Shown here: positions 8,432-49,800 of the stretch, piece by piece
How the letters are laid out: each line of letters begins with the position of its first letter
Numbering within the stretch: the first letter of the stretch is position 1
Virus record (IMG/VR): IMGVR_UViG_3300035682_000017
Coordinates: 17,704-81,703 of that record
Reading direction: 5' to 3' (one strand)
From: a virus
Length of the DNA stretch: 64,000 nucleotides
The notes under the pieces: generated by a model
Told to the model about the DNA's origin: nothing
Database searches by the model: none
What the model saw: the letters and a program-made list of their open reading frames with translations, nothing else
Position numbers and translations under genes: made by a program

Positions 8432-8569
8432 ATGGCAATGGCAAAAAAAGCAACTGCAACAAAAGGTGCAGCAGCAAAAGCAAAAGGTGCAAAACTTCCA
8501 CCTTGGTTAAAGGAAAAAGCAATTCCTAAGAAAGCAAAAGGAGGTTCAATGAAAAAAGGAGGATGTTAA
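8432..8569 (+). CDS. Small basic protein (45 aa) ending in KAKGG-SMKKGG-C, not in ORF track
   Basis: MAMAKKATATKGAAAKAKGAKLPPWLKEKAIPKKAKGGSMKKGGC, with an A-rich leader. Confidence 0.7.
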   Translation: MAMAKKATATKGAAAKAKGAKLPPWLKEKAIPKKAKGGSMKKGGC

Positions 8570-22957: not shown

Positions 22958-23629
22958 ATGACAACAATCGGTGAATGTGTATCAAGACTTCGTAGTAAAA
23001 TAAAAGCAAGAACAGAAGATGCTTTTGTTACAGACCGCTATCTCTATAGTGTATTCATTAGTTATGCTAAAGCTTTAATTAGAAGACAGGACAATGAAAA
23101 TAAAATAATGAGATATGATTCATTATTTGAACTTTTACCAATGGTTGATTTAATTGAAGTTGATAAAGCAGAAGCTAATTGTGCTGGTATTAAAACTGGA
23201 TGCAAAATAATGCGTACTAAAAATAAACTACCAAAAGTATTTCAAGGAAGCTTAGGTCCTATTTTTAGAAGTGTTGGACCTATTGATGGTTCAGATACAT
23301 TTCAACAAATTAATTCTGCCATCTATGTTGCAATGACAAGCTCAACTAATTTTAAATATAACAAGACTCACTACTTTTGGTATAGAAATGGTCATTTATA
23401 TTTTCCAGATATTAAATGGGTTGCTGTTCAAATTGAAGGAATGTTTGAAGAACCTGTAGATAAGTTTTGCAATCTAAATGATGTTGATTGTACAAACATG
23501 CAAGAGAAAGAATTAAATCTTCCAGAGTATTTAATTGCAGAAGCAGAACAAATGGCTTCTCAAGATTTGCTTACACCGGTTAAAATACCTAGTGATACAT
23601 CTGATGATCAACAAAACATACATAGATAA
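22958..23629 (+). CDS. Tail ring protein
   Basis: MTTIGECVSR, IMRTKNKLP, KYNKTHYFWYRNGHLYFP and LPEYLIAE motifs; synteny. Confidence 0.7.
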   Translation: MTTIGECVSRLRSKIKARTEDAFVTDRYLYSVFISYAKALIRRQDNENKIMRYDSLFELLPMVDLIEVDKAEANCAGIKTGCKIMRTKNKLPKVFQGSLGPIFRSVGPIDGSDTFQQINSAIYVAMTSSTNFKYNKTHYFWYRNGHLYFPDIKWVAVQIEGMFEEPVDKFCNLNDVDCTNMQEKELNLPEYLIAEAEQMASQDLLTPVKIPSDTSDDQQNIHR

Positions 23630-24552
23630 TGGCTTCATATAATTTACAATACAGAACTTATGACCAATTGTTGGCAGAGGTTCAATCTGATTTTAAAAAC
23701 TACTACCTTGAAGATTTTATTAATCCGCAAGAGTTCATTAAAGTTGCTAAAAGATGTAACCGTGAATTGGGTTTAAAGATATTTAAAACTCATGAAGCTG
23801 TTCTTGATGTAGAAAGAGGAAAAGCTAAACTTCCTAATAACTTTAATGTTTTAAATTTTGCATTCATTGTAGGCAAGTTTAAAAGAATTGAACCTGTTAT
23901 TTCAGGTACTCATACAGAACGTGTACCAGTTGGAACTAAATATGATCCAGGAGTTGGAGATCTTGTAATTTGTGCAGATCCAGTTGTAAATCCTGAAAAC
24001 ACATGCTCTACTTGTAACGTGTCTGTTACATCTTGTAGTTGTAATGTTCAACTTAATTGTAAAGGTGAGCAAACAATACTTGTTCAAAAACTTAAATATG
24101 AAACAAGAGTATGGGAAGAGTTTACACCAATTAGAATAATTGAAAATGGAGATGTTGTAGATATGAATTGTCCAAATAAAAAATGGCAAGTTTATAATTC
24201 TGCATACATTAAAGATAATTTCATTTATCCTTCTTTTCAAACTGGAAAGATTTATATAAACTATCAAGGTTTTTTAGAAGACAATGATGGAAACTTATTA
24301 GTTCCTGATCATGATCTATTAAATGAGTTTTATGAATATGCTATAAAACAACGTGTGTTAGAGAATATGATTATGAATGGTGAAGTTGTTAATCAAATGC
24401 AAATTCAATTGATTGAGCAAAGATTAAAAGCTGCAAGAAACAATGCATATTCATTAGTGAATACACCAGATTTTAATGAGTTAAGAAGAATATGGGAAGT
24501 TAATAGAAAAGCTCAATATTCTAATTATTACGACATGTTTAGAAGTATGTAA
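23629..24552 (+). CDS. Tail ring / tail tubular protein (P22 gp4-like position)
   Basis: GKAKLPNNF, YIKDNFIYPSFQTGKIYINY..DNDGNLLVPD..EFYEYAIK. Directly upstream of the muzzle gene. Confidence 0.75.
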   Translation: MASYNLQYRTYDQLLAEVQSDFKNYYLEDFINPQEFIKVAKRCNRELGLKIFKTHEAVLDVERGKAKLPNNFNVLNFAFIVGKFKRIEPVISGTHTERVPVGTKYDPGVGDLVICADPVVNPENTCSTCNVSVTSCSCNVQLNCKGEQTILVQKLKYETRVWEEFTPIRIIENGDVVDMNCPNKKWQVYNSAYIKDNFIYPSFQTGKIYINYQGFLEDNDGNLLVPDHDLLNEFYEYAIKQRVLENMIMNGEVVNQMQIQLIEQRLKAARNNAYSLVNTPDFNELRRIWEVNRKAQYSNYYDMFRSM

Positions 24553-27500: not shown

Positions 27501-29495
27501 CAGAAAACTTCTAAATCTCCGGTTATATTTGGTGGTGATACATACATTGGAAAATACTCTGAAAAGAATACTTTATTTTATTTTACTAACTGGTTAGAAT
27601 CGGTAATGTTAGATGGTGGCATTTTAGATTATACTAAATACATGATGTTTGATTACTCTTCCTTTTGGATGAATACTTCTGAATTTAACATCAATGAGTT
27701 TTATAAAAGTATTGGTGACGGTTTAGTTGCTGCCATGAAAACTTTAAAGTTTGCTACATTTTTTAAAACTATTAAAAGTCCTTCTGATTTTCATTGCTTT
27801 GATAGAAATGGTGGTACAGGATGGATGATGTTGAAAAATGCATACATGTATTTATTTAATTCAGGAGTTAGAAACTTTTTTGTTGAGTCCGAATTAAATG
27901 TTGATTGTAGAGATTATGAGGATGAGGATGCTAAAAAACATTATCCTATTGAATCAAACTTGTCTAATTTGTTTAACATGCGTACTATTAAAGCGGATAA
28001 CTTTTATAAATTAGATAGAAGTTTATGTGAGTCATTTTTACCGCATTCAAAAACTTCTTGGAGTACTCTTCTTGATACAAAGTATGATCCGACATTGTCA
28101 GAAACTTGTTATACTACAAGAGAGAATAGATTAATTTATTCCTTACCGCAAGAAACATTAAACAAAAAAAATAACTGGTCTGTATTTTTACCAAATAATA
28201 AAAAAGATTTTACAAGTAAGATTACAGCAATTAAACCTGTAGATAAAACAGGAGCCATGTTGTTTTTTCAAAATGAATCTCCAGCATTACTTCCAGGAGT
28301 TGATGAGTTACAAACTGGAAATGGAATCAAATTGATTGTTGGTGATGGTGGTTTATTTTCAAGAGAACTACAAAGATTAAGTCATACAGAAAGATCTATT
28401 GAATATGGTTCTTGCCAAGATGGTTTATCTGCTATAAATACACCGTCTGGTATATTTTGGATTAATGCAAACCAAGGAAAGATTTTTAACTACGCTGGTG
28501 GTTTAAAAGAAATCTCATTAAAGAATAATAGATTTTGGTTAAGTAAACATTTACCATTTCAGATATTAGAATCTTTTCCAAATTTTGATGGTGTTAATAA
28601 TCCTTTAACTGGAATTGGTTGTCAAAGTGTATATGATAATGAATACATGTTGGTTTACTTTAGTAAGAAGGATTACAAATTAAAAGATGAGCATAAAGAT
28701 AAACCGCATTCTTATGTTGGAAACGGTTTATTTATTGTTGATGGGTATAGTACTTTTATTGATAACCCTTTATATTTTGATGAGTGTTCCTTTACTTTAA
28801 GTTATGATGTAAAAAGTTCTGAATTTATTTCATATCATGATTGGTTTCCTGATTTAACTTTCAGCAGTAAGAACAACTTCCTTACAACAAAAGGTGCTAC
28901 AATCTGGAGGCATAATAAAACATGTCAGAAGTATTGTAACTACTATGGTATTGATTATCCATTTGAAGTAGAATTTCAATTAGATACAAAGTTTGCTGTT
29001 TCTACTATTAGAAACATTGAATACTATTTAGAAAGTTATACTTATGCTGATAACTGTTATGATAGATTACATTTACTTGATCATAACTTTGATGAAGCTG
29101 TTGTATATAATTCTGAACAATGTTCTGGTGTTTTAAGAATGAGAGTTGCTCCTAAAAACAATATTACTCAATTGCTACTCTATCCTAAAGTGTCTTACAG
29201 TTTTATAGAGATTTTATTTTCAAAAGAAGAACAGCAATATAGATTTAATCAGTTTTGGGATATAACAAGAAACAGAGGTGAGTTTCAAGATACCAATGAA
29301 GTTATGTGGAATACAGAAGCAAATGGTTATATTCGCGAATTAAATACAAAGTATCTTAATTATAAAAAGAATGCATTTCAGTTAAAGAAATTTAGACACT
29401 ATAACAGTAGGGTTTTACTTAAAAGAAATGTTTGTAATAATGTTGAGATGCTTGTAAATGTTGCGTTTGCTAACCAGCATTTATCACCTAGATAA
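24555..29495 (+). CDS. Muzzle / tail stabilisation protein (P22 gp10-like), 1646 aa
   Basis: LSNEPGN, MRDEVYTYFIRW, PIRHHKFP, IVGYEILRG, IFGGDTYIGK, FTLSYD..FISYHDWFP signatures of the crAss stabilisation protein. Confidence 0.85.
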   Translation: MAKKKTASASSSTFKSTATFDKAMVTDVNDYHLPENAWTYARNAINNSRKGDIGKLSNEPGNQFCTTAPFNIIGSIHIEKDIWAVFSTNNYLSEIGLFVEGECSYTKLVRSTCLRFKTTNLIIGVAKPNAFCSHELFWDDGINPTRYIDINKIPWLETCEDVDGCKICEPTLDSNDEKILDCEQLRLESIYKTPTAVVKKGVGIGTLNNGTYHVHTAYYVNEQRVTDYTTMSNTISLFTHDNVNGSIDVDIKNLDTNIFDDYELVLVYTVAEKTVARHIGMYSTGVTKVSIDNINLESGVIDSKLLGYITPVPDKSKGVYSTGKYLLRVSPTDKFQFNYQPLANQIRTFWQSVEYPKDYYKNGGINVGHMRDEVYTYFIRWIYNTGDKTPSFHIPGRGPVDYVLTNDDGSKGSTLKENDPLPSSFEKNVIEDYTPKVFEVFNTAYFTKSPNTLLDDGGVVIHEGRMGYYESLELYPDNNPQVWNASSHLWSDSGDDNHDLCGKPIRHHKFPENSLNYSGLYSDITNHYNKTGDKIRVMGVRFENIKPPKDNKGKVIKNIVGYEILRGSRDGNRSVLYKGLINNMFEYDLPSKITSRKGLYANYPFNDLRPDPFISKKKTNYDTAGGLKNLVPNTAYSKKHFTFNSPDVSFGRPFLNANELKIYGIAHGISSGKYAEASDHPKHKFYTDLALGVALIAGVGYAMAKQFGKKVNTYTGWQKNSTALPWNVTGTTVAFTGGTAIGYLPNPKPTAAAAALAAADTVKNNALKGLGILDIFTGTNTKELAQKAYIKSTASAAVMGSMYSSASKNEGFDNVDQTPTALRMMQAIPMFLTNMQDGANSTLELIKAVSPYNQFAHQFISKCEYEEYQAPSANNRRRKIDDSRYTTSQMQDFQSTHIINNLYRPTGVVFNTFKNVENTAIADVSRPDRLSQMADNDKFEFQRRRAASHYVAFKNPDRRQYGQLDSIKMIPTKSEYVEIDLTQKTSKSPVIFGGDTYIGKYSEKNTLFYFTNWLESVMLDGGILDYTKYMMFDYSSFWMNTSEFNINEFYKSIGDGLVAAMKTLKFATFFKTIKSPSDFHCFDRNGGTGWMMLKNAYMYLFNSGVRNFFVESELNVDCRDYEDEDAKKHYPIESNLSNLFNMRTIKADNFYKLDRSLCESFLPHSKTSWSTLLDTKYDPTLSETCYTTRENRLIYSLPQETLNKKNNWSVFLPNNKKDFTSKITAIKPVDKTGAMLFFQNESPALLPGVDELQTGNGIKLIVGDGGLFSRELQRLSHTERSIEYGSCQDGLSAINTPSGIFWINANQGKIFNYAGGLKEISLKNNRFWLSKHLPFQILESFPNFDGVNNPLTGIGCQSVYDNEYMLVYFSKKDYKLKDEHKDKPHSYVGNGLFIVDGYSTFIDNPLYFDECSFTLSYDVKSSEFISYHDWFPDLTFSSKNNFLTTKGATIWRHNKTCQKYCNYYGIDYPFEVEFQLDTKFAVSTIRNIEYYLESYTYADNCYDRLHLLDHNFDEAVVYNSEQCSGVLRMRVAPKNNITQLLLYPKVSYSFIEILFSKEEQQYRFNQFWDITRNRGEFQDTNEVMWNTEANGYIRELNTKYLNYKKNAFQLKKFRHYNSRVLLKRNVCNNVEMLVNVAFANQHLSPR

Positions 29496-29542: not shown

Positions 29543-32500
29543 ATGGCGAAGAAAGTATTAGATAATAAACCTACATTGGATGAATACATTAAGGTGTATG
29601 AACAATCTCTGGCTTTAGAGAATTCTTTAAAATCTAATCCTGATTATAAGTTAACTGCGGCTTTTCCAGCTAAAACAGATTGGTTAAAAAATTTACGTAT
29701 TGCTAGTGATAATTATGAAGCTGACACTAATCCAAAGCATCCATATTTTTCACGACTATTAAGTAATCCTTATCTATCAAAAGAAGATAAAGCACAAATA
29801 CTAGAAAACTCTAAAAAATATACACCGGGCTTTTATTATAAAGAAGAAACTCCAAATACTTTTTATCAAAGAGAATTATCTTTTGGTAATATTAATGATG
29901 AGTTTCCAATGGCATATTACGATACAAGAATTAAACCTACTTTACAAGTTGTTTATCAAAGAGAGGGAGCTGGAGAATTACAAGATCGTGTTCAAATGTA
30001 TAAGTATGATCTTCCTGTTTTAAGAGAACAAGTTGTTAAATTATTTCCAGAAGCAGAAGAAAAACTAAAAGCTGTAGAACAAAAGTTTAATAAACCTGTT
30101 GCTACTACTCAAGCTGCACAACCAGTACAATCAGGATACCCTTCTGGGTATGCTCCATATAGTTTGTATGGAAAAGTTCTTGATCCAAAAGTTTATGGCT
30201 ATGGAGAAAGTACAAGTGGTACTCCTATTCAAGTAGCTCAATTTTTAGATACTTATGGGTTGCAAAGAAAAATGAAAGAGTATTCAAAAGATAATTCTTT
30301 TCCATGGTCAGCACAAAAAGAAACTACTTTTGATAATGGAGGTATGGTTTTAAAACGTGACATACAAAAAAATGCAGCTTTAGTTCCTAAACAAAAAACT
30401 GTTACTCTTGATACACATGATAATGAATATTCCAATACACCTAAAATTAGAGATGCGGATAAAACTTATTATGATGATACAACTGGTACAATTTATTTAT
30501 CTCCGGAAGATGCAAAAAATAATGATGTAATTAAAGATCTTGAAGCTCAACATTATAAGTTACAAAAATACAAAGACTTGGATAAACAAGGTGTTGCATT
30601 TAAAGAAAAGAATAGAGTTAAATCTTTTCAAAGTGTTCCTTTTGATAGCAATTTTAATTTTAACTTTAATACAGATACAAAACAGGAAGCTGATAATAGA
30701 AAACAAATTACTGGAGTTAATACTTCTTTAGATGTTAATACTCCATTTGGTTTAAGTGTTGGTGCAGATGCATCATTTAAAAAAGATGCAGATAGAGTTT
30801 TGTTTGCTTTAAAAAATCAAAGAGTTGGGTTGCAAGGAAATGCAGGTAATTATAGTTTTGGTGTTAATGCAAATAACAGTTTTGATGAAAATGGTAAACC
30901 TTTATTCAATCCTAATACTACAGCATTTATTCAAAAAAATAATTTTAGAGTAGAAGGTAATAATAGTTTTCAAAAACAAGAAGATGGTACTTACAGTTTT
31001 AATCCAAATGCAACATTTTCTTATGATGATGGAAGAAATTCGGTAGCAGTAAAGCAAGAGTTTGCAAAAGGTGAAGATGGTAAATGGAAAACTACACCTA
31101 GCTTTTCTGGAAATTTTAAAAGAGGAAATTGGGATTTTGGTCAAAGTGTTTCTCCTTTTAGAGATGAAGAAGGTAATCTTAATACAGAGGCATCTACTTC
31201 AATAGGATATACTAGTCCAACTGAAAGATTTAATGTTGGTGCTACTAGAAACACTTCTAGTTTTAATAACGAATCTCCACAATTTAATAGTGGAAATCTT
31301 AATATGTCTTATATGCAACCTGTTGGTAGAAATGTAAACTTAAATGTTTCTGGTTCCAATGAGTTTACAAAAGAAGATATGTTAAATCCTAATTTAAAAC
31401 TAGGAGTTAATTATGGTGGAAAAAATAATCCTATGTCAATTAACATAGGTAATGAATTTAAAGAAGGATCATTATTTAATCCAACTGTAGGATTTAGATA
31501 CAAATTAAAAAAAGGCGGTCCTATAAAAAAAGAATTGCCTGATGATTATAATAATTTTTTAAACTTTAATAAAACTCTTCCTTCAAATTTACAAGATCCA
31601 AATTTTGAATATGGTAATCCTAATCATTATGACTTGTATGGTTTATGGGAAAGTTTAGGAAAGTCTAAAGATTTTAATCAAGCTGTAAAAAATAATCCTG
31701 ATTGGCAACCTGATGAAGAAGATGGACTATATCATGGATTTACTGTTAATACAAATGGTGTATTTTTAAAACCTGCAAACCATCCAACTACTTATAAAGA
31801 AGTTATGATGGCTAGTTTAAATACAGATCCTTATTTTAAGGAAAATACAATTATAATGAACGAGGATGGTAGATTGCAATATGTACCACGTAAAAAAAAT
31901 GGAGGAACTATGAATGAGCAATTAATGCAACAAGTGCAACAGATGATTGAACAAGGCGCATCTAAAGGAGATGTAGCTCAACAATTAATGGCAGCTGTAC
32001 AAGAAGGACAGTTAGACCAAGAATCAGTTATGCAAGTATTTCAGCAATTAGGAATTACTGAACAAGATTTACAACAAGTACAGCAACCGCAACAACCTTC
32101 TGAAGCTCAACAACAAGTTATGGCTTTAGGTGGTATGCCTAGATTTCCTAATGGAGGACAACCTTCTCCAGAAGAAATGGCTATGATGCAACAGCAACAA
32201 GCTCAACAACAAGGTGCGCCTCAAGAGCAACAACAAGGAGGTGGTGATCAAATGCAACAAGTAATGCAAATGGTTCAGCAAATGGTTCAACAAGGTGCAC
32301 AACCTGTTGATATAGTGCAAGCCTTACTGCAAAATCAATTACCACCTGAAGCAATTATGCAAGTGCTTACTCAAATGGGTATGGAACCTGAAGAAGCGCA
32401 AGCAACTATTCAGCAAGTAATGCAAGGTGGTCAACAACAACCACAACAGCAACAAGGTCCTGGTGAAGAACAAGTAGAAGGTGAATCTTCCAATCCTGAA

Positions 32501-34159
32501 GAAGAAGAAGAGGAGCAACAAGAACTTCCTCAACAAGCTTTTGGTAGTCAATTGAAAAAATTAATTTCAAATCACTCTAAAAGTGAACTTACTTCTGAAG
32601 TGGATTCTGACATTCATTCTGCAACTAGAAATTTAAAATTTGCAAATACGCTTAGAAAGAATGCACATGAGGCAATGCTAAATGAAGCTTTTGATTTTCC
32701 TAGTTTAAAAAATAATTCTAACTCTAACTCTTTACCACAAGCTGCTTGGGGGGATGATTTGAAAGCACTTCAAGATAAATATAAAGATGATGCTGAATAT
32801 AAAAAATATTTAGATGAGCAAAAGGCTTATACTGATTGGAAAACAAATCAAGGACAACAAGGTCAAGGACAAGGGCAACCAGGTGTAAATAATATTTATT
32901 ATGTAAATGATCCTAGAGGTGGTGGTTCACAATCAACTTATCAAAATCCTGGAGCATTTTCAAGATTATTTAATAACTCTGGTTGGACTTCAGATAGATT
33001 AGGTTTTGATTTTTCAAATCTTCCTTTATCCAATGATCCAGATGCTAAATACAATGTAACTGCTATAACTCCTGAAAAAGGAATTTTGGGTAGAAGAAAA
33101 GTAAGGTATGATATTAATTGGGGAACAACTCCTAATGATGCTTCAACAACTGGTACAGGTGCAACAGGTACAACTCCTGCGGTTGAACCTTTATCTGATA
33201 GACAAATAAGAAGAGGTAGAAGAAAATTTGATAATGAATATGAAGATGCTTTAGATGAAAAAATTGACGGTGTTAATAAAAATCAATCAAAAGCAGACCA
33301 ATTTACTGATAAGTGGAATGCAGCTAACGACTTAATAAATTCTAAAGAGTCTACTAAATTTAAAGATCAAGTAAATCCATATGATGCACCTAACCCACTT
33401 CTTGCTGAAAAGTATTTTGAAGGTGATGACAATATTTCCAGAAGAGATATTAAAGGTTATTATAAAGAAGCTTATCCGAATATGCCTCGTAAAGATGTAA
33501 GACAACTAGCAAGAGAATCTGCTGAAAACAAAGTGGTTATTGGTACTAATAGTAACTATGAAATTCCAGCAAGTCAAGATGATGCAAACGGTATAGGTGA
33601 CTTCTTTAGAAATACTGCTTATAATGTTCGTACTGGTATTAGTAATGCATTTGGTCATTTAAGTAATAAATCTTACGGAGGTTTAATTCAAGCTGGTCCA
33701 GGTATTAACATGGAAGATCCAATGGTTAGAGGATATAGTACAGATGAAGATAAACCTGCTACAGCTTTAAATCAAAAAGGAAGCGTTACTGTAAAAGAAA
33801 AGTTTAAATTGGATAAGGATGCTTTTGCAGATGCTTCTAAATTAACTGCGGATACAATCTCTTCTAGCTTAAATAGAGCAGATTTACAAGAAAGAGCAAA
33901 TGATCCTGAACAATATTCAGCTGTGAATAGATTCAGTCCAACTGCTTATTCACATGCTTCAAGCGGTTTATATGATGAGCAAGGTAATTTTAAACCTAAC
34001 AACGTAGGTGCTACAACTATATTCAATCCAACAAATGCAGAAGGTAGTTTTTATAAACAATTGTTTGCACTTGGTGGAGGTGTAAATAAAATAACTTTTA
34101 CAGATGAAGAGTTACAAGTTTTAAAAGACGCAGGTTATAATACTGATGACTTAATCTAA
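29543..34159 (+). CDS. Modular virion cargo (internal/ejected) protein, 1538 aa
   Basis: Follows the muzzle gene. Modules are separated by xxxGG motifs and include a beta-barrel-like segment and Gln/Met-rich repeats. Confidence 0.65.
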   Translation: MAKKVLDNKPTLDEYIKVYEQSLALENSLKSNPDYKLTAAFPAKTDWLKNLRIASDNYEADTNPKHPYFSRLLSNPYLSKEDKAQILENSKKYTPGFYYKEETPNTFYQRELSFGNINDEFPMAYYDTRIKPTLQVVYQREGAGELQDRVQMYKYDLPVLREQVVKLFPEAEEKLKAVEQKFNKPVATTQAAQPVQSGYPSGYAPYSLYGKVLDPKVYGYGESTSGTPIQVAQFLDTYGLQRKMKEYSKDNSFPWSAQKETTFDNGGMVLKRDIQKNAALVPKQKTVTLDTHDNEYSNTPKIRDADKTYYDDTTGTIYLSPEDAKNNDVIKDLEAQHYKLQKYKDLDKQGVAFKEKNRVKSFQSVPFDSNFNFNFNTDTKQEADNRKQITGVNTSLDVNTPFGLSVGADASFKKDADRVLFALKNQRVGLQGNAGNYSFGVNANNSFDENGKPLFNPNTTAFIQKNNFRVEGNNSFQKQEDGTYSFNPNATFSYDDGRNSVAVKQEFAKGEDGKWKTTPSFSGNFKRGNWDFGQSVSPFRDEEGNLNTEASTSIGYTSPTERFNVGATRNTSSFNNESPQFNSGNLNMSYMQPVGRNVNLNVSGSNEFTKEDMLNPNLKLGVNYGGKNNPMSINIGNEFKEGSLFNPTVGFRYKLKKGGPIKKELPDDYNNFLNFNKTLPSNLQDPNFEYGNPNHYDLYGLWESLGKSKDFNQAVKNNPDWQPDEEDGLYHGFTVNTNGVFLKPANHPTTYKEVMMASLNTDPYFKENTIIMNEDGRLQYVPRKKNGGTMNEQLMQQVQQMIEQGASKGDVAQQLMAAVQEGQLDQESVMQVFQQLGITEQDLQQVQQPQQPSEAQQQVMALGGMPRFPNGGQPSPEEMAMMQQQQAQQQGAPQEQQQGGGDQMQQVMQMVQQMVQQGAQPVDIVQALLQNQLPPEAIMQVLTQMGMEPEEAQATIQQVMQGGQQQPQQQQGPGEEQVEGESSNPEEEEEEQQELPQQAFGSQLKKLISNHSKSELTSEVDSDIHSATRNLKFANTLRKNAHEAMLNEAFDFPSLKNNSNSNSLPQAAWGDDLKALQDKYKDDAEYKKYLDEQKAYTDWKTNQGQQGQGQGQPGVNNIYYVNDPRGGGSQSTYQNPGAFSRLFNNSGWTSDRLGFDFSNLPLSNDPDAKYNVTAITPEKGILGRRKVRYDINWGTTPNDASTTGTGATGTTPAVEPLSDRQIRRGRRKFDNEYEDALDEKIDGVNKNQSKADQFTDKWNAANDLINSKESTKFKDQVNPYDAPNPLLAEKYFEGDDNISRRDIKGYYKEAYPNMPRKDVRQLARESAENKVVIGTNSNYEIPASQDDANGIGDFFRNTAYNVRTGISNAFGHLSNKSYGGLIQAGPGINMEDPMVRGYSTDEDKPATALNQKGSVTVKEKFKLDKDAFADASKLTADTISSSLNRADLQERANDPEQYSAVNRFSPTAYSHASSGLYDEQGNFKPNNVGATTIFNPTNAEGSFYKQLFALGGGVNKITFTDEELQVLKDAGYNTDDLI

Positions 34160-34164
34160 TTACA

Positions 34165-36381
34165 ATGAGAAATTTAAAACAAAATATTAATACTACTTTA
34201 AAACCAGAAGATAGAAAAAAATCTAATGTTGAAGTAGAAAAAGGAGAAATTGTATTTACTAAAAAGGATCCTAATTCAAACATGTTTGAGCTTTATTTAG
34301 CTGGTGGAAAAAAACATGGTTCTGGAGGAACGCCATTAAATTTACCAGTAGGGGATGGTGAAAATAAAGGATCATCTTTTATATTTTCAGATAGATTGAA
34401 AGTTAAAGATAAAGATGCTTTAGATTTTTTTGGATTTGAAACCAATAAGAAAATAACAATAGCTGATTTAATCAGACCATTGGTAGATGTTGTAAACAAA
34501 TCTAAATCTATTTTGTTAGATAAAAATGCAGATAAAATCTCTAAAGGTTCTGCAGAAAAAAATCTTGAAAATGCTAGATTTAAAATTGATGCTGCAAAGT
34601 TATATCAAGAATCTCTTAAAGGGATGAAAGATGTTCCAGAAGCAGAATCATTTTTTGAAAAAACAGCATTAAGTCCAGAAAAGGTTTTTGGAATTGATCC
34701 TAAACAACAAGAGCAAGCACATGAAGCTATCAAAATGGCTTTAGGTGGAATGATGCAAAATGCAAACTCACCGAGTTTTGATTTTGGTGGAGATCCTCAA
34801 ATACATTATTATGAAGATCCTGAACCAGAATATTCACCATCTCCATTCTTTATGGCAGAAGGTGGACAACTTCCTAAATATCCAGGTGGAACTTCTGTTA
34901 GAAGAAGAAAAACTATTGTGTTTGATTCAAAAAGTGGACCAGGTACAGTTAGTCAATGGGTTAATAGTGATGCAAAAAATAAAGAATTGGATGAAAAAGC
35001 AAATGCTATTATTGAAGCTGGTATTGCAAAAGGTGAAATTAAATATAATGAAAACACTGGAAACATTGAGCTTTTAGGAAACTTTTCTCCGACCTTTGCT
35101 GAAAGAATGATTATTACAAAAGTATTTAATCAAGCTGGTGAAAAAAAACTTGCCACTACTCAATTCAATGTAACTAATCAAAAACCTGGAAGATACTCTA
35201 AAGCAAATTCAAAAGGTACGTTAGAAGGAACTGGTTCATTTGTTGCAGGATTTACTCCTGAAATGTATGAGCAAAAATATATGTATTCAAAAGCTCTTGC
35301 TGAAGGTAAATCTGAAGAGGAAGCATTAAAATTTGCGGATGCACATAGATCTACAAAAGAATCAAGAGCAGAGTTTACTAAGTATTTAGGACTAAACATT
35401 CCAGATGCAGATTTAGCAGATGACAAATGGTATGATAAAAACTATGATAAAATTACTTCTGGTATTGAAGCAACATTTCCAAAAGATCAATATAGAAAGT
35501 ATAAAGGTAATGATGGTACTTCAGGGTTTGACCACTTTGATGCAATTGGATTTAAAGCTAAAAAACCTATAGAAAGTTTACCAGGAACTAGTAATGATAA
35601 AGATACTTCTGTTACAACTGTTGATCATGTTAATCCTAATGTGGGAGCTACTCCTTTTGGTTATAGACAAGAAGATATTAATTTATTAAATAGAGGTTTA
35701 GAACGTAAAAATGAAATAGGTGCATTGCTTCCTATACAAGCATCATTTAATGCTGTCATTCCTAAAGTGCCATACTATTCTCCTGAAAGAGCTCTTGCTT
35801 CAAATAAAGAAGACATGGCGCAAGCTATTGCTGGAATTAAAACTTTTTCTGATCCTAATGCGGCAGCTGCTAATGCAATGGCTGTATACAATGAAGGCTA
35901 CAAAAAATCCATGAATATAATTGACAATGTTTCTGATAAGAATATTAATCAAGAATCTATTTATGAACAAAGCAAAGCACAAATTCTAAACCAGTTTAAT
36001 CAAGCTGATGCTGCTTCTGATGTACTCTATACAGATAAGGTAAATTCTACAATGCAAAATGTTAGAGATGCTTTAAGTACAGCCAAAGATGCGATTGTAG
36101 GTTATAAGAATTCAGCACTTACTAATGCTTCTGATATTTACAATGTTAACCAAATGCAAGAGCACTATAAGAAGAATCCTGTTACTGGTAAGATTGACTT
36201 TGCTCCAGGATACGATCCATTTGCAGCATCTAAAAGTTCTACTACTACTGCGTATGATGAGTTCAATTCAATTAAAAGTAAATACAAAAATATGCCTGAT
36301 GAACTTGCTGTTAAACTAGTAGCTATTCAAATGGGTAAAAACACAGATAAGACGGTAGCAGATCCAGATGAAAAAATTTAA
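34165..36381 (+). CDS. Cargo protein (crAss cargo protein 1-like N-terminal domain)
   Basis: NVEVEKGE...GKKHGSGGTPLNLP...SFIFSDRLKV motif, a cluster of xxxGG motifs, helical C-terminus. Confidence 0.65.
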   Translation: MRNLKQNINTTLKPEDRKKSNVEVEKGEIVFTKKDPNSNMFELYLAGGKKHGSGGTPLNLPVGDGENKGSSFIFSDRLKVKDKDALDFFGFETNKKITIADLIRPLVDVVNKSKSILLDKNADKISKGSAEKNLENARFKIDAAKLYQESLKGMKDVPEAESFFEKTALSPEKVFGIDPKQQEQAHEAIKMALGGMMQNANSPSFDFGGDPQIHYYEDPEPEYSPSPFFMAEGGQLPKYPGGTSVRRRKTIVFDSKSGPGTVSQWVNSDAKNKELDEKANAIIEAGIAKGEIKYNENTGNIELLGNFSPTFAERMIITKVFNQAGEKKLATTQFNVTNQKPGRYSKANSKGTLEGTGSFVAGFTPEMYEQKYMYSKALAEGKSEEEALKFADAHRSTKESRAEFTKYLGLNIPDADLADDKWYDKNYDKITSGIEATFPKDQYRKYKGNDGTSGFDHFDAIGFKAKKPIESLPGTSNDKDTSVTTVDHVNPNVGATPFGYRQEDINLLNRGLERKNEIGALLPIQASFNAVIPKVPYYSPERALASNKEDMAQAIAGIKTFSDPNAAAANAMAVYNEGYKKSMNIIDNVSDKNINQESIYEQSKAQILNQFNQADAASDVLYTDKVNSTMQNVRDALSTAKDAIVGYKNSALTNASDIYNVNQMQEHYKKNPVTGKIDFAPGYDPFAASKSSTTTAYDEFNSIKSKYKNMPDELAVKLVAIQMGKNTDKTVADPDEKI

Positions 36382-36430: not shown

Positions 36431-38290
36431 ATGGCAACTTTTAATCAAAAAGATATAGCTTCTACTTTGCAACCTAGCAAACCTAACTTGCAGTTTGACT
36501 TGCAGTTACTACAAGCTAAGGAAAGTTTGTATAAGGCTAACAAAAAAAAAGTTAGTGAGCTTTACGGTTCTATTTTAGATTCTGATGTTACAAGAACAGA
36601 CAGTCAAGAAAAAAAAGATGAGTTCTTCAAACAAATTTCTTCTGATATAAAATTACTTGGTAGTGTGGATTTCTCATTGGATTCAAATGTTGATGAGGCA
36701 AAAAATATGTTCAAATCTATTTATACAAATAAACAGGTTTTGAAAGATATGGTCTGGACAGAAAACTTTAAAAACCAATTACAAGCTGGTCAAAATTTAA
36801 AAGGATGTATAGATCCAAAAAAATGCAACGGTCAATGGTGGGAAGAAGGTGATAAATACATGGCTTATAAAAAACAAGAATTTATAAATGCCAGTAAAGG
36901 AGACATGCTAAATTTTTCTGATGTAGAATATGTTCCATATATAGACATTACTGCTAAAGGATTAAACATTGCTAAAGAAAAAAAAATTAGTGTTAAAAAA
37001 GATAAAGTAGTTGGTAATTATATTGTTACAACTACCAATGGAGTAAACGGAATTTCTGCATATACTGCTTTATTTGGTGCATCAATTGGAAGTGATCCTT
37101 CTGTAAAAGCAATGTATAAAGCTAAGTCTTATGTAGATAGAATGGATGGTGTTTACTCACTTATGCAAAACGGAGAAGCTGCATCATTTGAAGAAGCTCA
37201 AGTAAAGTTTTATGAAACAAAGAGTGAGGAGCTTGATCAAAAATTACAAGAGAAAGCGGATGTTCTTAATGTGGAAAGAGATTATCTAAAAGAAAAAGTT
37301 GATGAGTATGAAACTGCATATAAGAATGGAAAGTTAAAAGAAAATACACCTGAATGGGAAAAAGCATTGGAGGTAAAAGAACTATATGCTAATTCTTTAC
37401 GTATTGAAGAATATTTTGACTTAGCTGATAATGCAAAATTAAATATGAACAGGCAGTCTAATTTAAACTTCTTAAATGAAAGTTATGATACAAGAGCTGG
37501 TATTAATTTAATGTTTGATGATATTACTAAAGTTGCTTCCGCAATTTCAAATGCAAGTGAGGAAACAGAATTAACAGAGTCAAAATTTGCTTTAGAGAAA
37601 ATGAAATTTAATAATGATGTTTCTTTAGAACAAACAAAACTTGCTAATAAAAAGAATTACGCATTATGGAAAAAAGAAAACAACATTACTGATAGTGATG
37701 GAGATGGAGATGGAACAACTCCTGCTAAAGAAGAAAAAGCTAAAAATGATAGAGCTGCAGTTGCTAATAAAGCAGATGCGGCAAAAAATCTTGTTTCTTC
37801 TTTTAGTTTACAAGATGAAGTTAAAAAACAATATAAAGATATATATGGTTCTGATTTACCAGCTGACACAAAAGGTTTTCAAGCAGGTTCTCCTGAAGTA
37901 AAAGCTTATAAAAAAGCAGTTAAGGCTGCTAAAAATGAACTTATTAAATTAAAACGTGAGGCTAATGATGTAATTATAAATAGTAAAAAAAGAACTATGC
38001 CTTTACCATATCCTGAAGCTGTAACTCAATCTCAACTTTATTCGACATCTAATATTTTAAGTGATGATCAAGTAGATCAAGTTACAAACTGGATGCAAAA
38101 ATCAAATCTTTTAAATTCTGAAGGAACGCCTGTTGGAAAAATTGGTAAAAACTTTATGGGTTTATTAGAAAACGGTGATTTTAATAAATACTTTACACAA
38201 GGACTTACTATTTATGGATTGTGGAATATTTATAAAAAGAAAGGTGATTTGCAAGATGTAAAAGATTATTTAGGAGAAGAAGAAGAATAA
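36431..38290 (+). CDS. Helical cargo/ejection protein (619 aa)
   Basis: Helical/coiled-coil composition, position in the cargo block, YVPYID motif. Confidence 0.55.
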   Translation: MATFNQKDIASTLQPSKPNLQFDLQLLQAKESLYKANKKKVSELYGSILDSDVTRTDSQEKKDEFFKQISSDIKLLGSVDFSLDSNVDEAKNMFKSIYTNKQVLKDMVWTENFKNQLQAGQNLKGCIDPKKCNGQWWEEGDKYMAYKKQEFINASKGDMLNFSDVEYVPYIDITAKGLNIAKEKKISVKKDKVVGNYIVTTTNGVNGISAYTALFGASIGSDPSVKAMYKAKSYVDRMDGVYSLMQNGEAASFEEAQVKFYETKSEELDQKLQEKADVLNVERDYLKEKVDEYETAYKNGKLKENTPEWEKALEVKELYANSLRIEEYFDLADNAKLNMNRQSNLNFLNESYDTRAGINLMFDDITKVASAISNASEETELTESKFALEKMKFNNDVSLEQTKLANKKNYALWKKENNITDSDGDGDGTTPAKEEKAKNDRAAVANKADAAKNLVSSFSLQDEVKKQYKDIYGSDLPADTKGFQAGSPEVKAYKKAVKAAKNELIKLKREANDVIINSKKRTMPLPYPEAVTQSQLYSTSNILSDDQVDQVTNWMQKSNLLNSEGTPVGKIGKNFMGLLENGDFNKYFTQGLTIYGLWNIYKKKGDLQDVKDYLGEEEE

Positions 38291-38312
38291 ATAACAATTA
38301 AAATATTATAAA

Positions 38313-46895: not shown

Positions 46896-49800
46896 ATGAA
46901 AATTTGCATTACTCCCAATTCTATTAAATTATTCTACGTTTATTTTGAAAGCATAGCTCCTAATTTTAAATTAGATAAAAGCACTTTACCAGAAACATTA
47001 AAACTGTTTTATGATAAAGCAATGGATGATTTTTCAAGTAGTTCTCAAAATAAAAAAGAATTAACTGAATTGGTACTACAACATTTAAGCATTTTGCCAA
47101 AAGTTTTACAATCAGAACTTGTTCTAACTTCAAATAGAGATTTGGTAAAAAATGTAAATAATTTACAATTAGAAATTGAATCTGGTATTTTAGAAGGTAG
47201 TGGAAAATTAATTGATGTAATTAATAATATAAACTCAATGATTGGCAATGGTCCAATCATTCCTACAGTGTCACAAAATGATGAAGATGATTATAGATTT
47301 GATGCTATATCATTTGAGTTTAGTAAAACTAATAATCAAGACACTGAAGTATCTTCTTTAAATTCTTTTAAGGATAACATTAAAAGTGAAAATCAAACTT
47401 TGACTACTAATGTTACGATAAACATTGTAAAATCTAACAATGCTAAAAATTATAAATTTAAAGCATTCTTATTTAAAGATGTAGAGTCTTTAGTTTCTGG
47501 TGAGTTAGATAAAAACTTTTTACCAAATGATTTTGTTATGCTTGTTGTTGATGCTAATAACAACATAGTAAAGTTTGATAATGCTGGCGTTGAATCTGAA
47601 AAAGGAATTGTTCCTATTTATTGGACAAAAGTACTAGGTACTGAATTTTCATTTAAAGCAAACAACTTGGCTTTAATCTTCTCACAAAAATATAAAATAT
47701 CAATTAATGAGGCAGAGAAAATTGTTGCTAGTAAATTAAAAGAGCATTTATCTAAAATTGAATATATTAAAACCAATCTTGAAAAAGGAAATGAGGTAAC
47801 TATTCCAATTGATATAAACAATAGTTCAGTAGGGTTCATTGAAAAGTCTTTTGTTGAAAGATTCCCATTGTCTAATATGACAAACCTTGGTGAAGTTAAA
47901 GTTGTACTTAAACAAGATTCAAAAAGAAGAAGTGCTTTAATTATTCCTGAAAAAGGTAATGAGTCTTTTCCAATTTCTGGAACTGAATTAGGACCAATGT
48001 TAACAGAAGAATTTTCTGAAGTTCTTTTTTCACTTGCGTTTGCTCCAAACCTTCTTTATAAAAATTCAAACGGAAAAGTTTTTTCAAGTGTACTTGGTAT
48101 AAGTGAAAGGAAAGAAAGATTAAGCACTTTACTTAAAGGGGTTTTAATTTCTTCTGTTGCAATTAAAAGTGAAAATCCAAATGAAAGACCTGTTATTAAA
48201 AATCAAGTTATTTTTGGTAACTATTCTTTTTCATATACGTATGATACCAAAAACAATGAATATACTTTTGACAATGGTGTTAAAATTGAACAAGTAAAAA
48301 ATTTATTCAATGAATTTTTAAAAGAAGATGACATCATTTTAACTAAACTTGATCCATCTAATCCTAAAATTTCTTCTAAGTTAAAAGAAAATAGAGCTTC
48401 TGCAAATGCAGGTGATTTCTTTATTGAAAATGACTCTGTTTATTTTAAAACAAAAAAACTTGTAAATCTTGGTATACCTACAGGTGTTGTTAAAGCTGGA
48501 GTTGATTCACCAGTTATTCGTGTACCAGTTTCATCAGAAATATCTGAATCCGGACAGAAAGTTATTGTTTTTGATTCTTACAGTTTGAGTGATTTTGTTA
48601 AAACTTTTGGAACAACAAACTTGATTCCAAATAAAAACAATGAACTTGTAGCTAACTATCCTTATTTAACTTTTGGTAACCCAATGGTTAAGTTAGAAGA
48701 AAACAATACTGAAGAAGATGAAACTTTATTTCAGTCACTAGCTGATACAGTTAGACCTACTGGTTCAAGTGAACTTCAGGAAGCTGCTCTAAAGTGGTTT
48801 CAAAATCATCCATTAAGCAAATTAATTTCATTAAATATTTCAGATCAAGTTAGTGCAAAAGGTCCAAACTTTGTTGCTAACTTTTTAAACAATGCTATTA
48901 CTTTGTACAAAGGCTCTTTAAATACTGATATATTTCACGAGTCTTTTCACGCATTTACACAATCTGTTTTATCACCAAAAGAATTAGAAGCATTATATTC
49001 TAAAATTAAAAGTACGCCTGGTTATTTTACAGTTGTTGTTCATGGTGTAAAAAAAGAATTGCGTTTTGATAAAGCAAGTAATCTTGAAATTGAAGAGTAC
49101 CTTGCTGAACAATTTAGAATGTATGCTCAAAACAGAACTACTTCTTCTAAATTAAGTGTACAAGTAAAAGAATTTTTTGATAGACTTTTAACACTCATCA
49201 AATCTATTTTTGGTGATATGCGTATTACTGATGCTGTAAATTTGAATAGGTCTAGCAAGTTGGCTTCTAAAACATTTGAGGCTTTATTTTCTGGAAATAT
49301 AAACCTTTCAAATTTTAGACAATCAAGTACAGATGCTTTATGGAAATCAAGTGAAATTGATACAGACTTTTCAATGGAAGAAATCCATGTAATTATGGAT
49401 TCTATGAAATCTTTGTTTAATGAGTTTGTTACATACGGTGTTAACTCAAACAACAAACCTTTATTAAACTTGATGATGCAATTATCTGAAGTTAATGAGG
49501 AGTTGGAACCAGAAAAATATAATAAGATTAAAGAAGAACTTTCTTTAAAACAAAATTCAATTAGAGATAAATATACTGCACGCGGTTTATTTTCTGTACA
49601 AACAAATTCAGAGTTGTTTAAAACAGGATTAACTTATATTAAAAACAACCTTATCCAGCAAAGAAATTTATTAGATAAAAGATATTCTGAAAATCCAAAC
49701 AACTTGAATTTTAAATTTGCAGCAGATGTATTAAACAAAGCTGTATCTAATTTTGGAGATGAGCAAGAAGCATTTAATGAAGTTCCTACTGAAAAAGGAT

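What the first reader, a model, noticed from the sequence alone, without database searches (positions are those of the whole stretch)
29543..34890. Cargo proteins punctuated by a repeated xxxGG / LPxxxxG motif: possible polyprotein processing or packaging code
Seen in the 1538-aa protein: FDNGG (30329), LKKGG (31505), KKNGG (31892), MALGG (32120), FPNGG (32144), LPQQAFG (~32525), LPQAAWG (~32732), KSYGG-LIQAGPG (33668), FALGG (34064). Seen in the next protein: MALGG (34735), FDFGG (34777), MAEGG-QLPKYPGG (34852). Several motifs fall where composition switches between modules (N-terminal domain | beta-rich domain | His-containing domain | Gln-rich repeats). The unlinked 45-aa basic protein (8432) ends in KAKGG-SMKKGG. 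Inference: these are cleavage sites of a maturation protease with GG specificity, or capsid-targeting tags, so that a concatenated set of effectors is packaged and released.
Basis: partly seen in the sequence, partly recalled or inferred. Interest (0 to 1): 0.8.

Follow-up and report, generated by a model that had tools for sequence, protein, structure and literature searches.

The report
Glycine seam peptides in crAss-phage cargo
Two large proteins that this crAss-like phage probably carries in its particle and injects are strings of swappable modules joined and capped by short conserved glycine-containing peptides, which look more like uncut joints and coupling handles than protease cutting sites, though cutting is not excluded.

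Summary
The window is a crAss-like phage. The 1538-aa (p2) and 738-aa (p3) genes follow the muzzle gene, where crAss001 encodes its cargo proteins.

**Observation confirmed.** All 14 motif strings sit at, or directly beside, the stated coordinates.
- Bare GG excess in the window is modest.
- The GG glycines are far better conserved than the rest of p2.
- Homology breakpoints, a 128-aa cassette indel and a gene split all fall on them.
- In 61 non-redundant related loci an extended form is about 10-fold enriched, and only in the variable genes between muzzle and p3 and in p3 itself.

**New here.**
- p2 ends in a roughly 35-aa C-terminal cap, found on 59 of 61 genes directly upstream of p3 and on no other gene class.
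- p3 relatives start with a basic leader, which this window's p3 lacks.
- The cap is missing in the p3-family proteins fused to upstream sequence.

**Protease.** Seven protease families are absent. A conserved HExxH sits in the neighbouring 4109-aa polymerase-associated giant.

**Reading.** Uncut seams and coupling handles about 0.45, processing sites about 0.27, plain linkers about 0.2.

The scan has reported this motif system before on other crAss-like DNA. My paper searches found no description of it.

The parts
29543..34159 (+). p2, 1538 aa, Cys-free modular protein in the variable 'slot' between the muzzle gene and p3; probable virion cargo
   Evidence: ORF. The muzzle (PF25731, 3e-26) lies directly upstream. 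Slot position in the synteny of 80 loci. 0 Cys. No Pfam or PHROG family.
30329..30343 (+). Seam FDNGG (aa 263-267), at the end of the N-terminal module
   Evidence: Position. GG kept in 6 of 6 aligned homologues. Relatives P0087 and P0088 start about 10 aa before it and lack aa 1-261.
31409..31420 (+). NYGG (aa 623-626) inside the beta-rich module
   Evidence: GG kept in 4 of 6. It lies inside a module, so not every GG is a seam.
31505..31519 (+). Seam LKKGG (aa 655-659), at the end of the beta-rich module
   Evidence: The relative P0085 reads FRYKLKNGG|TMNEQ here.
31517..31906 (+). His-containing cassette (aa 659-788) with its trailing KKNGG seam
   Evidence: Absent as one block from the 92% identical P0085. 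Found as a unit in unrelated slot proteins of L014, L021, L048 and L066. In a relative the gene is split here: P0090 ends ...YVPRK and P0091-94 start MNEQLMQ.
32120..32158 (+). Bipartite seam MALGG-MPRF-PNGG (aa 860-872) between two Gln-rich helical repeats
   Evidence: 9 of 10 for each GG. It matches the extended family motif. The two repeats are related, E 7e-4.
32417..32431 (+). Seam VMQGG (aa 959-963), at the end of the second helical repeat
   Evidence: GG kept in 7 of 9.
32525..32545 (+). LPQQAFG (aa 995-1001), a decayed LP-x-A-x-GG seam
   Evidence: Aligns to ...Q[AN]YGG or KFGG in 9 of 9 homologues. It resembles the LP[KE]AQxGG that follows internal caps.
32732..32752 (+). LPQAAWG (aa 1064-1070), a weaker copy of the same half-motif
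   Evidence: Only 2 of 9 homologues have GG here; the others have WG or DG.
33668..33682 (+). Seam KSYGG (aa 1376-1380)
   Evidence: GG kept in 9 of 10.
34046..34153 (+). C-terminal cap (aa 1502-1537, includes FALGG at 34064)
   Evidence: A profile built from 60 tails hits it at E 4.8e-4. The same cap ends 59 of 61 genes directly upstream of p3. It ends no ring, muzzle, p3, p4 or p6 gene. Alignment A4.
34165..36381 (+). p3, 738 aa, Cys-free; conserved gene after the slot, candidate counterpart of crAss001 C1 (gp45)
   Evidence: 84 homologues. 262 confirmed relatives in IMG/VR. Its N-domain family has 2121 cluster representatives at E <= 0.001.
34165..34719 (+). p3 N-terminal domain (aa 1-185)
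   Evidence: Alignment A5, 13 invariant columns. hhalign to gp45 aa 480-511: probability 77.8%, E 1.9e-5 over 32 columns. No PF25725 hit.
34720..34890 (+). p3 linker with the seams MALGG, FDFGG and MAEGG-QLPKY-PGG
   Evidence: G194, G209 and G234 are invariant in 14 sequences down to 28% identity, while the surrounding linker varies. Family view.
48936..48950 (+). HESFH (aa 681-685 of the 4109-aa giant): candidate zincin-like site, the only protease lead
   Evidence: Kept as YHE[AG]WH in 3 of 3 relatives long enough to show it, and as YHEAFH in crAss001 gp47. No Pfam or PDB sequence support.
8432..8569 (+).

Best explanation
p2 and p3 are ejected cargo proteins of a crassvirus, built as beads on a string. 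Small, independently exchangeable modules are joined by short conserved seam peptides. These take the forms hydrophobic-x-x-GG, GG-x-L-P-x-[YF]-x-x-GG, and LP-x-A-x-G(G).

I read the seams as mostly uncut. They would be flexible, extended joints that let a long multi-module chain be stored and threaded through the portal and tail channel.

The two end versions would be coupling handles:
- the acidic C-terminal cap on the variable slot proteins, here p2 aa 1502-1537;
- the basic N-terminal leader on p3-type proteins.

These handles would hang a variable cargo protein onto the portal-anchored p3.

**Shown:** the motifs, their conservation, their restriction to two gene classes, their coincidence with module borders, and the distribution of cap and leader.

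**Inferred:** virion location, the lack of cutting, cap-leader contact, and portal binding of p3.
For: **Context.** Capsid, ring 2, ring 1 and muzzle families lie upstream. The synteny ring2-ring1-muzzle-[1-3 variable ORFs]-p3-p4-p6 holds across 80 loci.

**Class specificity in 61 non-redundant loci.**

| Gene class | Extended motif, observed vs shuffled |
|---|---|
| slot | 44 vs 4.2 |
| slot? (muzzle not recognised) | 10 vs 1.9 |
| p3 | 31 vs 2.8 |
| muzzle | 0 vs 2.3 |
| p4 | 1 vs 2.2 |
| p6 | 2 vs 1.9 |
| ring | 0 vs 0.4 |
| other downstream | 1 vs 1.8 |

- [YFWML]GG: slot 248 vs 108, p3 137 vs 68, and about 1x elsewhere.
- A second set of 145 cluster representatives, downstream of the N-domain: [FYWML]GG 233 vs 84.9 and extended motif 28 vs 3.8.

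**Seams are module borders.**
- A cassette indel is bounded by two GG.
- A gene split falls at the KNGG joint.
- P0087 and P0088 start at the FDxGG seam.
- P0098 joins a p3 N-domain to p2-type repeats.

**Conservation extends beyond GG on both sides** (GG-x-L-x-K-Y-Q-x-x-G-E-V; a roughly 65-aa conserved tail), as expected of a structural or binding element.

**Cap.**
- At the C-end of 59 of 61 genes directly upstream of p3.
- Slot 53 of 78; slot? 20 of 34.
- 0 of 32 ring, 45 muzzle, 61 p3, 58 p4, 31 p6 and 69 other genes.

**Leader.** At the N-terminus of 53 of 61 p3 genes, and of 0 p4, p6 and muzzle genes. Also 94 of 116 in the second set.

**Fusions.** In p3-family proteins whose N-domain is internal (29 of 145), the helix-strand cap is missing, with 1 weak cap hit in all 145. 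A leader-like piece is often kept: 15 of 29 by pattern.

**Charge.** The cap tail is acidic in 51 of 61 and the leader is basic. Spearman -0.35, P 0.006, n 61, uncorrected for kinship.

**crAss001 gp45.**
- It carries the same kind of motifs at aa 205-210, 258-265, 324-333, 421-428 and 554-563.
- Its cryo-EM model starts at 425, that is with AFGG joined to the portal-bound domain (passage).
- crAss001 virion gels show bands of 85 and 100 kDa, which could be whole gp45. They also show 150 and 270 kDa bands, so the giants are whole (passage).
Against: - Cap-leader contact is pure inference.
- The motif patterns were written after seeing instances. The p3 enrichment is partly circular.
- ORFs were called from the first ATG, so some N-termini may be wrong.
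- The charge correlation ignores kinship.
- This window's own p3 lacks the typical leader (MRNLKQ...).
- The split relative P0090 ends without a cap.
- In gp45 the ordered segments 214-245 and 425-552 are bracketed by seams. That would also fit separate cut fragments in tail and capsid.
- Cutting the KNGG joint after GG would give nearly the two products that relatives encode as separate genes.
- A conserved HExxH lies in a co-packaged giant.
- Virion location of p2 and p3 rests on synteny alone.
Confidence: 0.45

Rival explanations
1. Polyprotein processing. The seams are cleavage sites. A packaged protease would cut p2 and p3 into separate modules, either in the capsid or after ejection. The candidate is the zincin-like HExxH domain of the polymerase-associated giant, or an unrecognised enzyme. 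The N-terminal leader would act like a capsid-targeting propeptide.
For: - The fused joint YVPRK-KNGG-T-MNEQ corresponds to a gene boundary in relatives.
- Each cassette carries its own trailing xxGG.
- Seams bracket the two ordered gp45 segments, which lie in different compartments.
- HExxH is conserved in 3 of 3 informative relatives and in gp47.
- Published proposals exist that fused crAss giants are 'likely cleaved' and that zincin domains process phage polyvalent proteins (passages).
Against: - No C48, C39, S78, M23 or ClpP family in this contig or in 4 relatives that are 96-100% complete.
- C5 and S77 also gave nothing, but their controls rang nowhere.
- No peptidase family in the Pfam scans of all ORFs. 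The PHROGs lists showed none either, but only the first 25 of 34 families were displayed.
- The HExxH regions match no Pfam family and no PDB sequence.
- The giants that carry HExxH are not enriched in the motif: 7 GG against 10.2 expected.
- Conservation extends 10-15 residues past the GG.
- The hydrophobic residue sits at P5 or P3, not at the P4 of the adenovirus-type consensus. That consensus is recalled, not taken from a call.
- The gp45 model runs through AFGG.
- Large intact bands are seen in crAss001 virions.
Confidence: 0.27
2. Plain structural linkers. Hydrophobic-x-x-GG would only be the common way these modules end (helix C-cap or strand end plus a flexible Gly-Gly). Nothing would recognise it. 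Conservation would reflect folding and the need for unfolded joints. The repeated coding sequence would favour in-frame module shuffling.
For: - Several seams directly follow predicted helix-like Gln-rich segments (…QQVMAL-GG, …QQVMQ-GG, …KQLFAL-GG).
- The motif is degenerate, and some copies have decayed (LPQQAFG-S; PRGGG not conserved).
- Modules move as [domain + xxGG] units.
- Only one of five gp45 copies lies at the edge of ordered density.
Against: - Aromatic, Leu-Pro and Lys-Tyr-Gln positions are conserved over phages that share under 30% identity.
- The motif is confined to two gene classes and absent from the equally large p4, p6 and muzzle proteins.
- The cap and leader are strictly terminal.
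Confidence: 0.2
3. Chance or composition artefact. GG dipeptides in Gly-containing low-complexity protein would have been picked out by eye.
For: The bare GG excess in the window is weak: p2 P 0.036, p3 P 0.12.
Against: Conservation 0.86 against 0.50. About 10-fold class-specific enrichment in 61 loci. Replication in 145 further proteins.
Confidence: 0.02

Closest known systems
Cargo protein 1 (C1, gp45) of Bacteroides phage crAss001 (Bayfield et al. 2023, PMC10172136; Pfam PF25725 crAss_CARG1)
   Same: - A gene just after the muzzle gene.
- A long, partly unfolded ejected protein.
- It carries the same aromatic-GG or [FY]PS[LM]xxxGG peptides at five places.
- The p3 N-domain aligns to the portal-bound domain at 77.8% hhalign probability.
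   Different: - No PF25725 hit for p3.
- No similarity in the C-terminal halves.
- Here the N-terminal 'tail' part is a separate, far larger gene (p2) with a C-terminal cap.
- In the passages I searched, the paper does not mention the motif, a protease or cleavage (0 occurrences of protease, cleav or proteoly).
Polyvalent proteins of phages and conjugative elements (Iyer et al. 2017, PMC5512222)
   Same: Injected multi-domain proteins made of unrelated, shuffled modules. Zincin-like HExxH domains are proposed there to process them (passages).
   Different: p2 and p3 have no HExxH. That paper has 0 occurrences of 'crAss' and of 'linker' in the text searched. A conserved junction peptide, a cap or a leader is not part of that concept as far as I saw.
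Gly-Gly-cleaved virion polyproteins (adenovirus protease, ASFV pS273R) and the double-glycine leaders of C39 peptidases (recalled, not from a call)
   Same: A short motif ending in GG at the borders of virion core components or at the end of a leader.
   Different: No C5, C48 or C39 protease was found. The hydrophobic position differs. The conserved residues continue after the GG.
Capsid-targeting sequence of phage T4 internal proteins, and the ejection proteins of T7 (gp14-16), P22 and N4 (recalled; N4 passages)
   Same: Short terminal peptides or dedicated proteins that load cargo into the head for ejection ahead of the DNA.
   Different: The T4 signal is cut by a prohead protease of family S77, which was not found here (control silent). 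No shared sequence.

Membership tests
Crassvirus cargo protein 1 (PF25725 crAss_CARG1) | Match to the Pfam model at or above 27 bits | tested here: not met
   gp45 itself scores 222 bits over aa 424-555. p3 aa 1-212 gives no hit, even at E <= 10.
Crassvirus cargo protein 1 (PF25725 crAss_CARG1) | Profile-level similarity to the portal-bound domain of gp45 (aa 425-552) | tested here: inconclusive
   hhalign A5 vs gp45 415-571: probability 77.8%, E 1.9e-5, only 32 columns. Earlier tries were weaker: A1 at E 0.22 and hmmsearch at -0.1 bits. A profile search against PDB sequences found no gp45 chain.
Crassvirus cargo protein 1 (PF25725 crAss_CARG1) | Gene in the cargo block after the muzzle gene | tested here: met
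   Muzzle at 24555-29495. p2 then p3 follow. The same order holds in 80 loci.
Crassvirus cargo protein 1 (PF25725 crAss_CARG1) | Present in virions, bound to the portal | not testable with these tools
   Needs proteomics or cryo-EM.
Virion polyprotein cut at Gly-Gly by a clan CE or C39 cysteine protease | A cognate protease gene in the genome | tested here: not met
   C48, C39 and C5: 0 of 5 records, of which 4 are 96-100% complete. The C5 control rang nowhere. The window contig itself is only 68% complete.
Virion polyprotein cut at Gly-Gly by a clan CE or C39 cysteine protease | Cleaved products in the particle | not testable with these tools
   No proteomic data for this phage. The supplements of the crAss001 papers were closed.
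Polyvalent protein with zincin-like processing peptidase (Iyer et al. 2017) | Many unrelated, shuffled modules in one injected polypeptide | tested here: met
   Modules of p2 recur in different contexts and orders in relatives.
Polyvalent protein with zincin-like processing peptidase (Iyer et al. 2017) | HExxH metallopeptidase domain in the same protein or set | tested here: inconclusive
   None in p2 or p3. A conserved HExxH lies in the 4109-aa giant, and a second in the next ORF. There is no profile support.
Prohead-protease maturation (S78 HK97-type, S77 T4-type, ClpP-type) | Protease gene near the portal and capsid genes | tested here: not met
   0 of 5 records for S78, S77 and ClpP. The S77 control was silent. 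The Pfam scans of all window ORFs and the PHROGs scans showed no protease family. PHROGs displayed 25 of 34 families.

The most novel reading that the evidence does not exclude
Crassviruses would have a plug-in cargo-loading system. Any effector module that ends in the roughly 35-aa acidic cap is clipped head-to-tail onto the basic leader of the portal-anchored C1-type protein, or is fused to it, in which case the cap is dispensable. The GG seam peptides would keep the resulting train of modules extended in the portal-tail channel, so that the modules leave in gene order ahead of the DNA. The hypervariable slot between muzzle and C1 would then be a swappable payload bay for the most abundant phages of the gut and of many waters.
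Probability: 0.25. Interest if true: 0.8.

Novelty: new variant of a known kind. Interest (0 to 1): 0.6.

Why it matters
Crassviruses are among the most abundant phages known, yet how they load and eject several megadaltons of protein is open. A conserved junction, cap and leader code would give a sequence rule for three things:
- recognising their cargo genes;
- predicting the order of ejection;
- testing, by deletion or tag transfer, how cargo is loaded.

If the seams are cut instead, this would be the first polyprotein maturation system described in this phage order. Either way, the p3 N-domain family is very large (2121 cluster representatives). The variable slot next to it carries enzymes such as YkuD and glucosaminidase domains in relatives.

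Tried and rejected
**Ideas and searches that led nowhere.**
- Shine-Dalgarno relic (GGAGG before internal Met): rejected, because the Gly codons are a GGT/GGA mix with no fixed pattern.
- Near-identical or protein-level matches of p2 and p3 in the named phage collection: none.
- A single-protein scan of IMG/VR: none. The alignment-based scan worked.
- His-containing cassette: no Pfam family and no usable Atlas hit.
- Cap: no solid family. DUF7210 matched 8 of 60 members, best 7.4e-5, and SutA-RBD 9 of 60, best 0.022. There was no PDB sequence relative; best E 0.31.
- p3 C-terminal half against the gp45 C-terminal half: nothing.
- Strict cap pattern: 38 terminal and 0 internal. The more sensitive profile then found 17 internal hits, about 10 of them distinct, each followed by LP[KE]AQxG(G) or a close variant. 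So the cap is not strictly terminal in slot proteins.
- tRNA scan: none.

**Literature.** Searches found no description of the motif.
- I read passages only of PMC10172136, PMC10136315, PMC5512222, PMC13434306 and preprint 10.1101/2020.03.07.982082.
- For PMC6235969 I read passages plus the whole of section 7.
Extended Data Fig. 3 and Table 3 of PMC10172136, and the gel annotation of PMC6235969, may show whether gp45 is whole.

**No support / no verdict.** None to report, since no complex job ran.

Full report
**What the window is.** Pfam places a crassvirus major capsid protein at 3492-5108, ring protein 2 at 22958-23629, ring protein 1 at 23629-24552 and the muzzle protein at 24555-29495. 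All large ORFs lie on the + strand. The window is part of an 81.7-kb virus record rated 68% complete. In Bacteroides phage crAss001 the genes after the muzzle gene encode cargo proteins C1 (gp45) and C2 (gp46), followed by the polymerase-associated giants (passages of PMC10172136; annotation). The finding covers the two genes in that position: p2 (29543-34159, 1538 aa) and p3 (34165-36381, 738 aa). Neither matches a Pfam or PHROG family. Neither has a cysteine.

**The observation.** 12 of 14 start at the exact nucleotide, and the other two follow directly.
- Bare GG is only mildly over-represented: p2 has 14 against 8.5 (P 0.036) and p3 has 6 against 3.5 (P 0.12).
- The narrower form [FM][ADP]xGG occurs 7 times in p2+p3 and once in the other 18,468 aa of the window. 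I wrote this pattern after seeing the instances.
- The stronger evidence is conservation. In an alignment with 10 homologues of at most 63% identity, the GG glycines are 0.86 identical, other glycines 0.61 and all other residues 0.50. Nine of the thirteen sites examined keep a GG in most relatives. LPQQAFG aligns to [YF]GG in 9 of 9. LPQAAWG (2 of 9) and PRGGG (0 of 9) do not hold.
- In p3, G194, G209 and G234 are invariant in 14 sequences down to 28% identity, inside an otherwise variable linker.

**Seams are module borders.**
- BLAST segments of p2 against relatives begin or end at aa 262/263, 660-665, 782-790 and 872/873.
- The 92% identical P0085 lacks aa 659-786 as one block, reading FRYKLKNGG|TMNEQ. 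The His-containing cassette is therefore bounded by two GG.
- The same cassette sits in unrelated contexts in L014, L021, L048 and L066.
- In other relatives the gene is split at that seam. P0090 ends ...YVPRK and P0091-P0094 begin MNEQLMQ, where the window reads YVPRK-KNGG-T-MNEQLMQ.
- P0087 and P0088 start about ten residues before the FDxGG seam. P0098 joins a p3-type N-domain to p2-type Gln-rich repeats.
- The two Gln-rich helical repeats of p2 are related (E 7e-4), and each is bounded by GG.

**Family-wide picture.** An alignment-based scan of IMG/VR confirmed 262 relatives of p3 among 581 pattern matches, and the best 80 loci were kept. They share the order ring2-ring1-muzzle-[1 to 3 variable 'slot' ORFs]-p3-p4-(p5)-p6-polymerase.
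- After the p3 N-domain comes an acidic, Gln-, Met- and Pro-rich stretch. It is followed by 1 to 4 copies of a longer peptide such as MA-x-YGG, GG-x-L-x-K-Y-Q-x-x-G-E-V or GG-Q-L-P-R-F-D-GGG.
- In 61 non-redundant loci the extended pattern was counted against shuffles: 44 vs 4.2 in slot proteins, 10 vs 1.9 in 'slot?' ORFs (no muzzle recognised upstream) and 31 vs 2.8 in p3. It was 0 vs 2.3 in muzzle, 1 vs 2.2 in p4, 2 vs 1.9 in p6, 0 vs 0.4 in ring proteins and 1 vs 1.8 in other downstream ORFs.
- [YFWML]GG was 248 vs 108 in slot proteins and 137 vs 68 in p3, and about 1x elsewhere.
- The pattern was derived from p3 relatives, so the p3 figure is partly circular. The slot figure is not.
- In a second set, the 145 new representatives among the best 150 of 2121 clusters found with a profile of the p3 N-domain, the parts after the N-domain hold [FYWML]GG 233 vs 84.9 and the extended pattern 28 vs 3.8.

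**Cap and leader.**
- The last roughly 65 residues of the gene directly upstream of p3 are conserved across loci whose bodies are unrelated: (R)GDYD-x-N-x-G-x-F-R-P ... [YF]GG ... GG-E-Y-E-L-T-x-E-E-I-x-x-L-x-x-x-G-[GY]-x-V-E-[FY]-L-D-stop.
- A profile of the last 34 residues finds this cap at the C-end of 59 of 61 such genes. By class it is on 53 of 78 slot and 20 of 34 'slot?' proteins. It is on 0 of 32 ring, 45 muzzle, 61 p3, 58 p4, 31 p6 and 69 other proteins. The window's p2 tail (aa 1502-1537, including FALGG) is a member, E 4.8e-4.
- Seventeen internal hits, about ten of them distinct, occur in slot proteins. Each is followed by LP[KE]AQxG(G) or a close variant.
- p3 relatives begin with a basic strand-like leader (M-K-K-V-R-I-K-x-L-P-K-A-x-x-G-G). 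It is present in 53 of 61 p3 genes, and in 0 p4, p6 and muzzle genes. It is also present in 94 of 116 in the second set. The window's own p3 starts MRNLKQ... and does not fit the pattern.
- In the 29 of 145 representatives where the N-domain is internal, and so fused to upstream sequence, the conserved GDYD...[YW]GG piece is often kept, but the helix-strand cap is not (1 weak cap hit in all 145). A leader-like piece, often still with its Met, precedes the domain in 15 of 29 by pattern.
- Cap tails are acidic in 51 of 61 and leaders are basic. The charges are inversely correlated (Spearman -0.35, P 0.006, n 61), without correction for kinship.

**Link to a solved virion.**
- crAss001 gp45 has 21 GG and five motif copies: FSAYGG (205-210), FAEGGG (260-265), YPSLKAFGG (325-333), WNAFGG (423-428) and EYPSMFAYGG (554-563). 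gp46 has only one GGG.
- The paper reports ordered density for aa 214-245 in the tail barrel and aa 425-552 on the portal. The ordered pieces are therefore bracketed by seams, and the portal-bound model begins with AFGG.
- PF25725 covers gp45 424-555 but does not hit p3. A profile of 60 p3 N-domains aligns to gp45 480-511 with 77.8% probability. Homology is possible but unproven.

**Protease question.**
- Pfam scans of every window ORF of at least 100 aa, and of 22 upstream ORFs, found no peptidase family. The PHROGs scans listed none either, but displayed only the first 25 of 34 families.
- Six-frame searches for C48, C39, S78, C5, S77, M23 and ClpP found nothing in this record or in four relatives rated 96-100% complete. 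The C5 and S77 controls rang nowhere, so those two answers are weak.
- There is one lead. HESFH at aa 681 of the 4109-aa giant is kept as YHE[AG]WH in the 3 relatives whose fragment reaches that far, and as YHEAFH in gp47. A second HExxH lies at aa 252 of the next ORF. Neither region matches a Pfam family or a PDB sequence.
- The phi14:2 preprint says that fused giants are 'likely cleaved' and that one neighbour carries a zincin-like domain (passage). Iyer et al. propose zincin-mediated processing of phage polyvalent proteins (passages). The 2026 N4 paper notes the HExxH motif and reports no cutting in the passages seen.
- crAss001 virion gels gave bands of 15 to over 300 kDa, including 85, 100, 150 and 270 kDa (passage; section 7). 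This fits intact giants and possibly intact gp45. The band assignments are in a figure and supplements that I could not see.

**Weighing.** I favour uncut seams with terminal coupling handles (0.45), for these reasons:
- conservation extends far beyond the GG;
- the cap and leader are end-specific and class-specific;
- fusion appears to replace the cap;
- no protease family was found;
- the gp45 model runs through one seam.

Processing (0.27) keeps real weight:
- a seam coincides with a natural gene boundary;
- seams bracket the two gp45 pieces that lie in different compartments;
- a conserved HExxH travels with the cargo.

Plain linkers (0.2) explain the degenerate copies, but not the class restriction or the long conserved flanks. 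Chance is excluded (0.02).

**Limits.** Motif patterns were post hoc. ORF starts were taken at the first ATG. 'slot?' ORFs lack a recognised muzzle upstream. 19 of the 80 loci were dropped as near-duplicates before counting.

**Earlier notes of this scan.** They report the same motif system on other crAss-like DNA, with the same open question. They led me to look at the protein ends and at PF25725, both of which I tested myself.

Noticed in passing
window 48936-48950 and 59978-59992: Two HExxH motifs lie in the giants: HESFH at aa 681 of the 4109-aa protein and HEFSH at aa 252 of the next ORF. The first is conserved in 3 of 3 informative relatives and in crAss001 gp47 (aa 2157). Neither has Pfam or PDB sequence support.
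   Followed up: partly
window 8432-8569; L083 1498-1635 (-): A 45-aa very basic ORF ending in Cys is conserved (66% identity, same length) at the syntenic place in one relative. Two further tiny basic ORFs (48 and 54 aa) lie next to it in that relative. They may be small internal or DNA-binding peptides.
   Followed up: partly
window 30641-31516: The beta-rich Asn/Ser/Phe module of p2 (about aa 367-658) has only a weak Pfam hit to N-glycanase_C (E 9e-4, below the cut-off). Another note on this window reads it as an outer-membrane-type barrel. I did not test that.
   Followed up: no
window 31907-32437: Two tandem copies of a roughly 50-aa Gln-rich helical mini-domain (E 7e-4 to each other). The same repeats occur in p3-family proteins of other phages (P0098, L010, L013, L014, L036).
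   Followed up: partly
P0090, P0070 (relatives): Cargo relatives carry cell-wall enzyme domains by precomputed Pfam. The slot-protein relative P0090 has YkuD L,D-transpeptidase (PF03734) and the p3-family relative P0070 has glucosaminidase (PF01832). This fits envelope-breaching payloads.
   Followed up: no
G000 upstream of the window (L002 1-17800): Among 35 ORFs scanned, one matches the Thoeris anti-defence Tad2-like domain (3.4e-22) and one a WDGH domain (5.9e-33). The output did not say which ORFs.
   Followed up: no
P0134, P0138, P0183, P0220 and others: In p3-family proteins fused to upstream sequence, the leader often keeps its Met (…GG-x-x-x-MKIRITG…). These could be recent fusions, or internal starts that still make a separate p3.
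   Followed up: no
window 36431-40469: The two genes after p3 (619 and 718 aa) are depleted in GG (0 and 1, against 1.7 and 2.1 expected). They have no family match. The first belongs to a conserved p4 family starting MATY(L/I)QG in most loci.
   Followed up: partly
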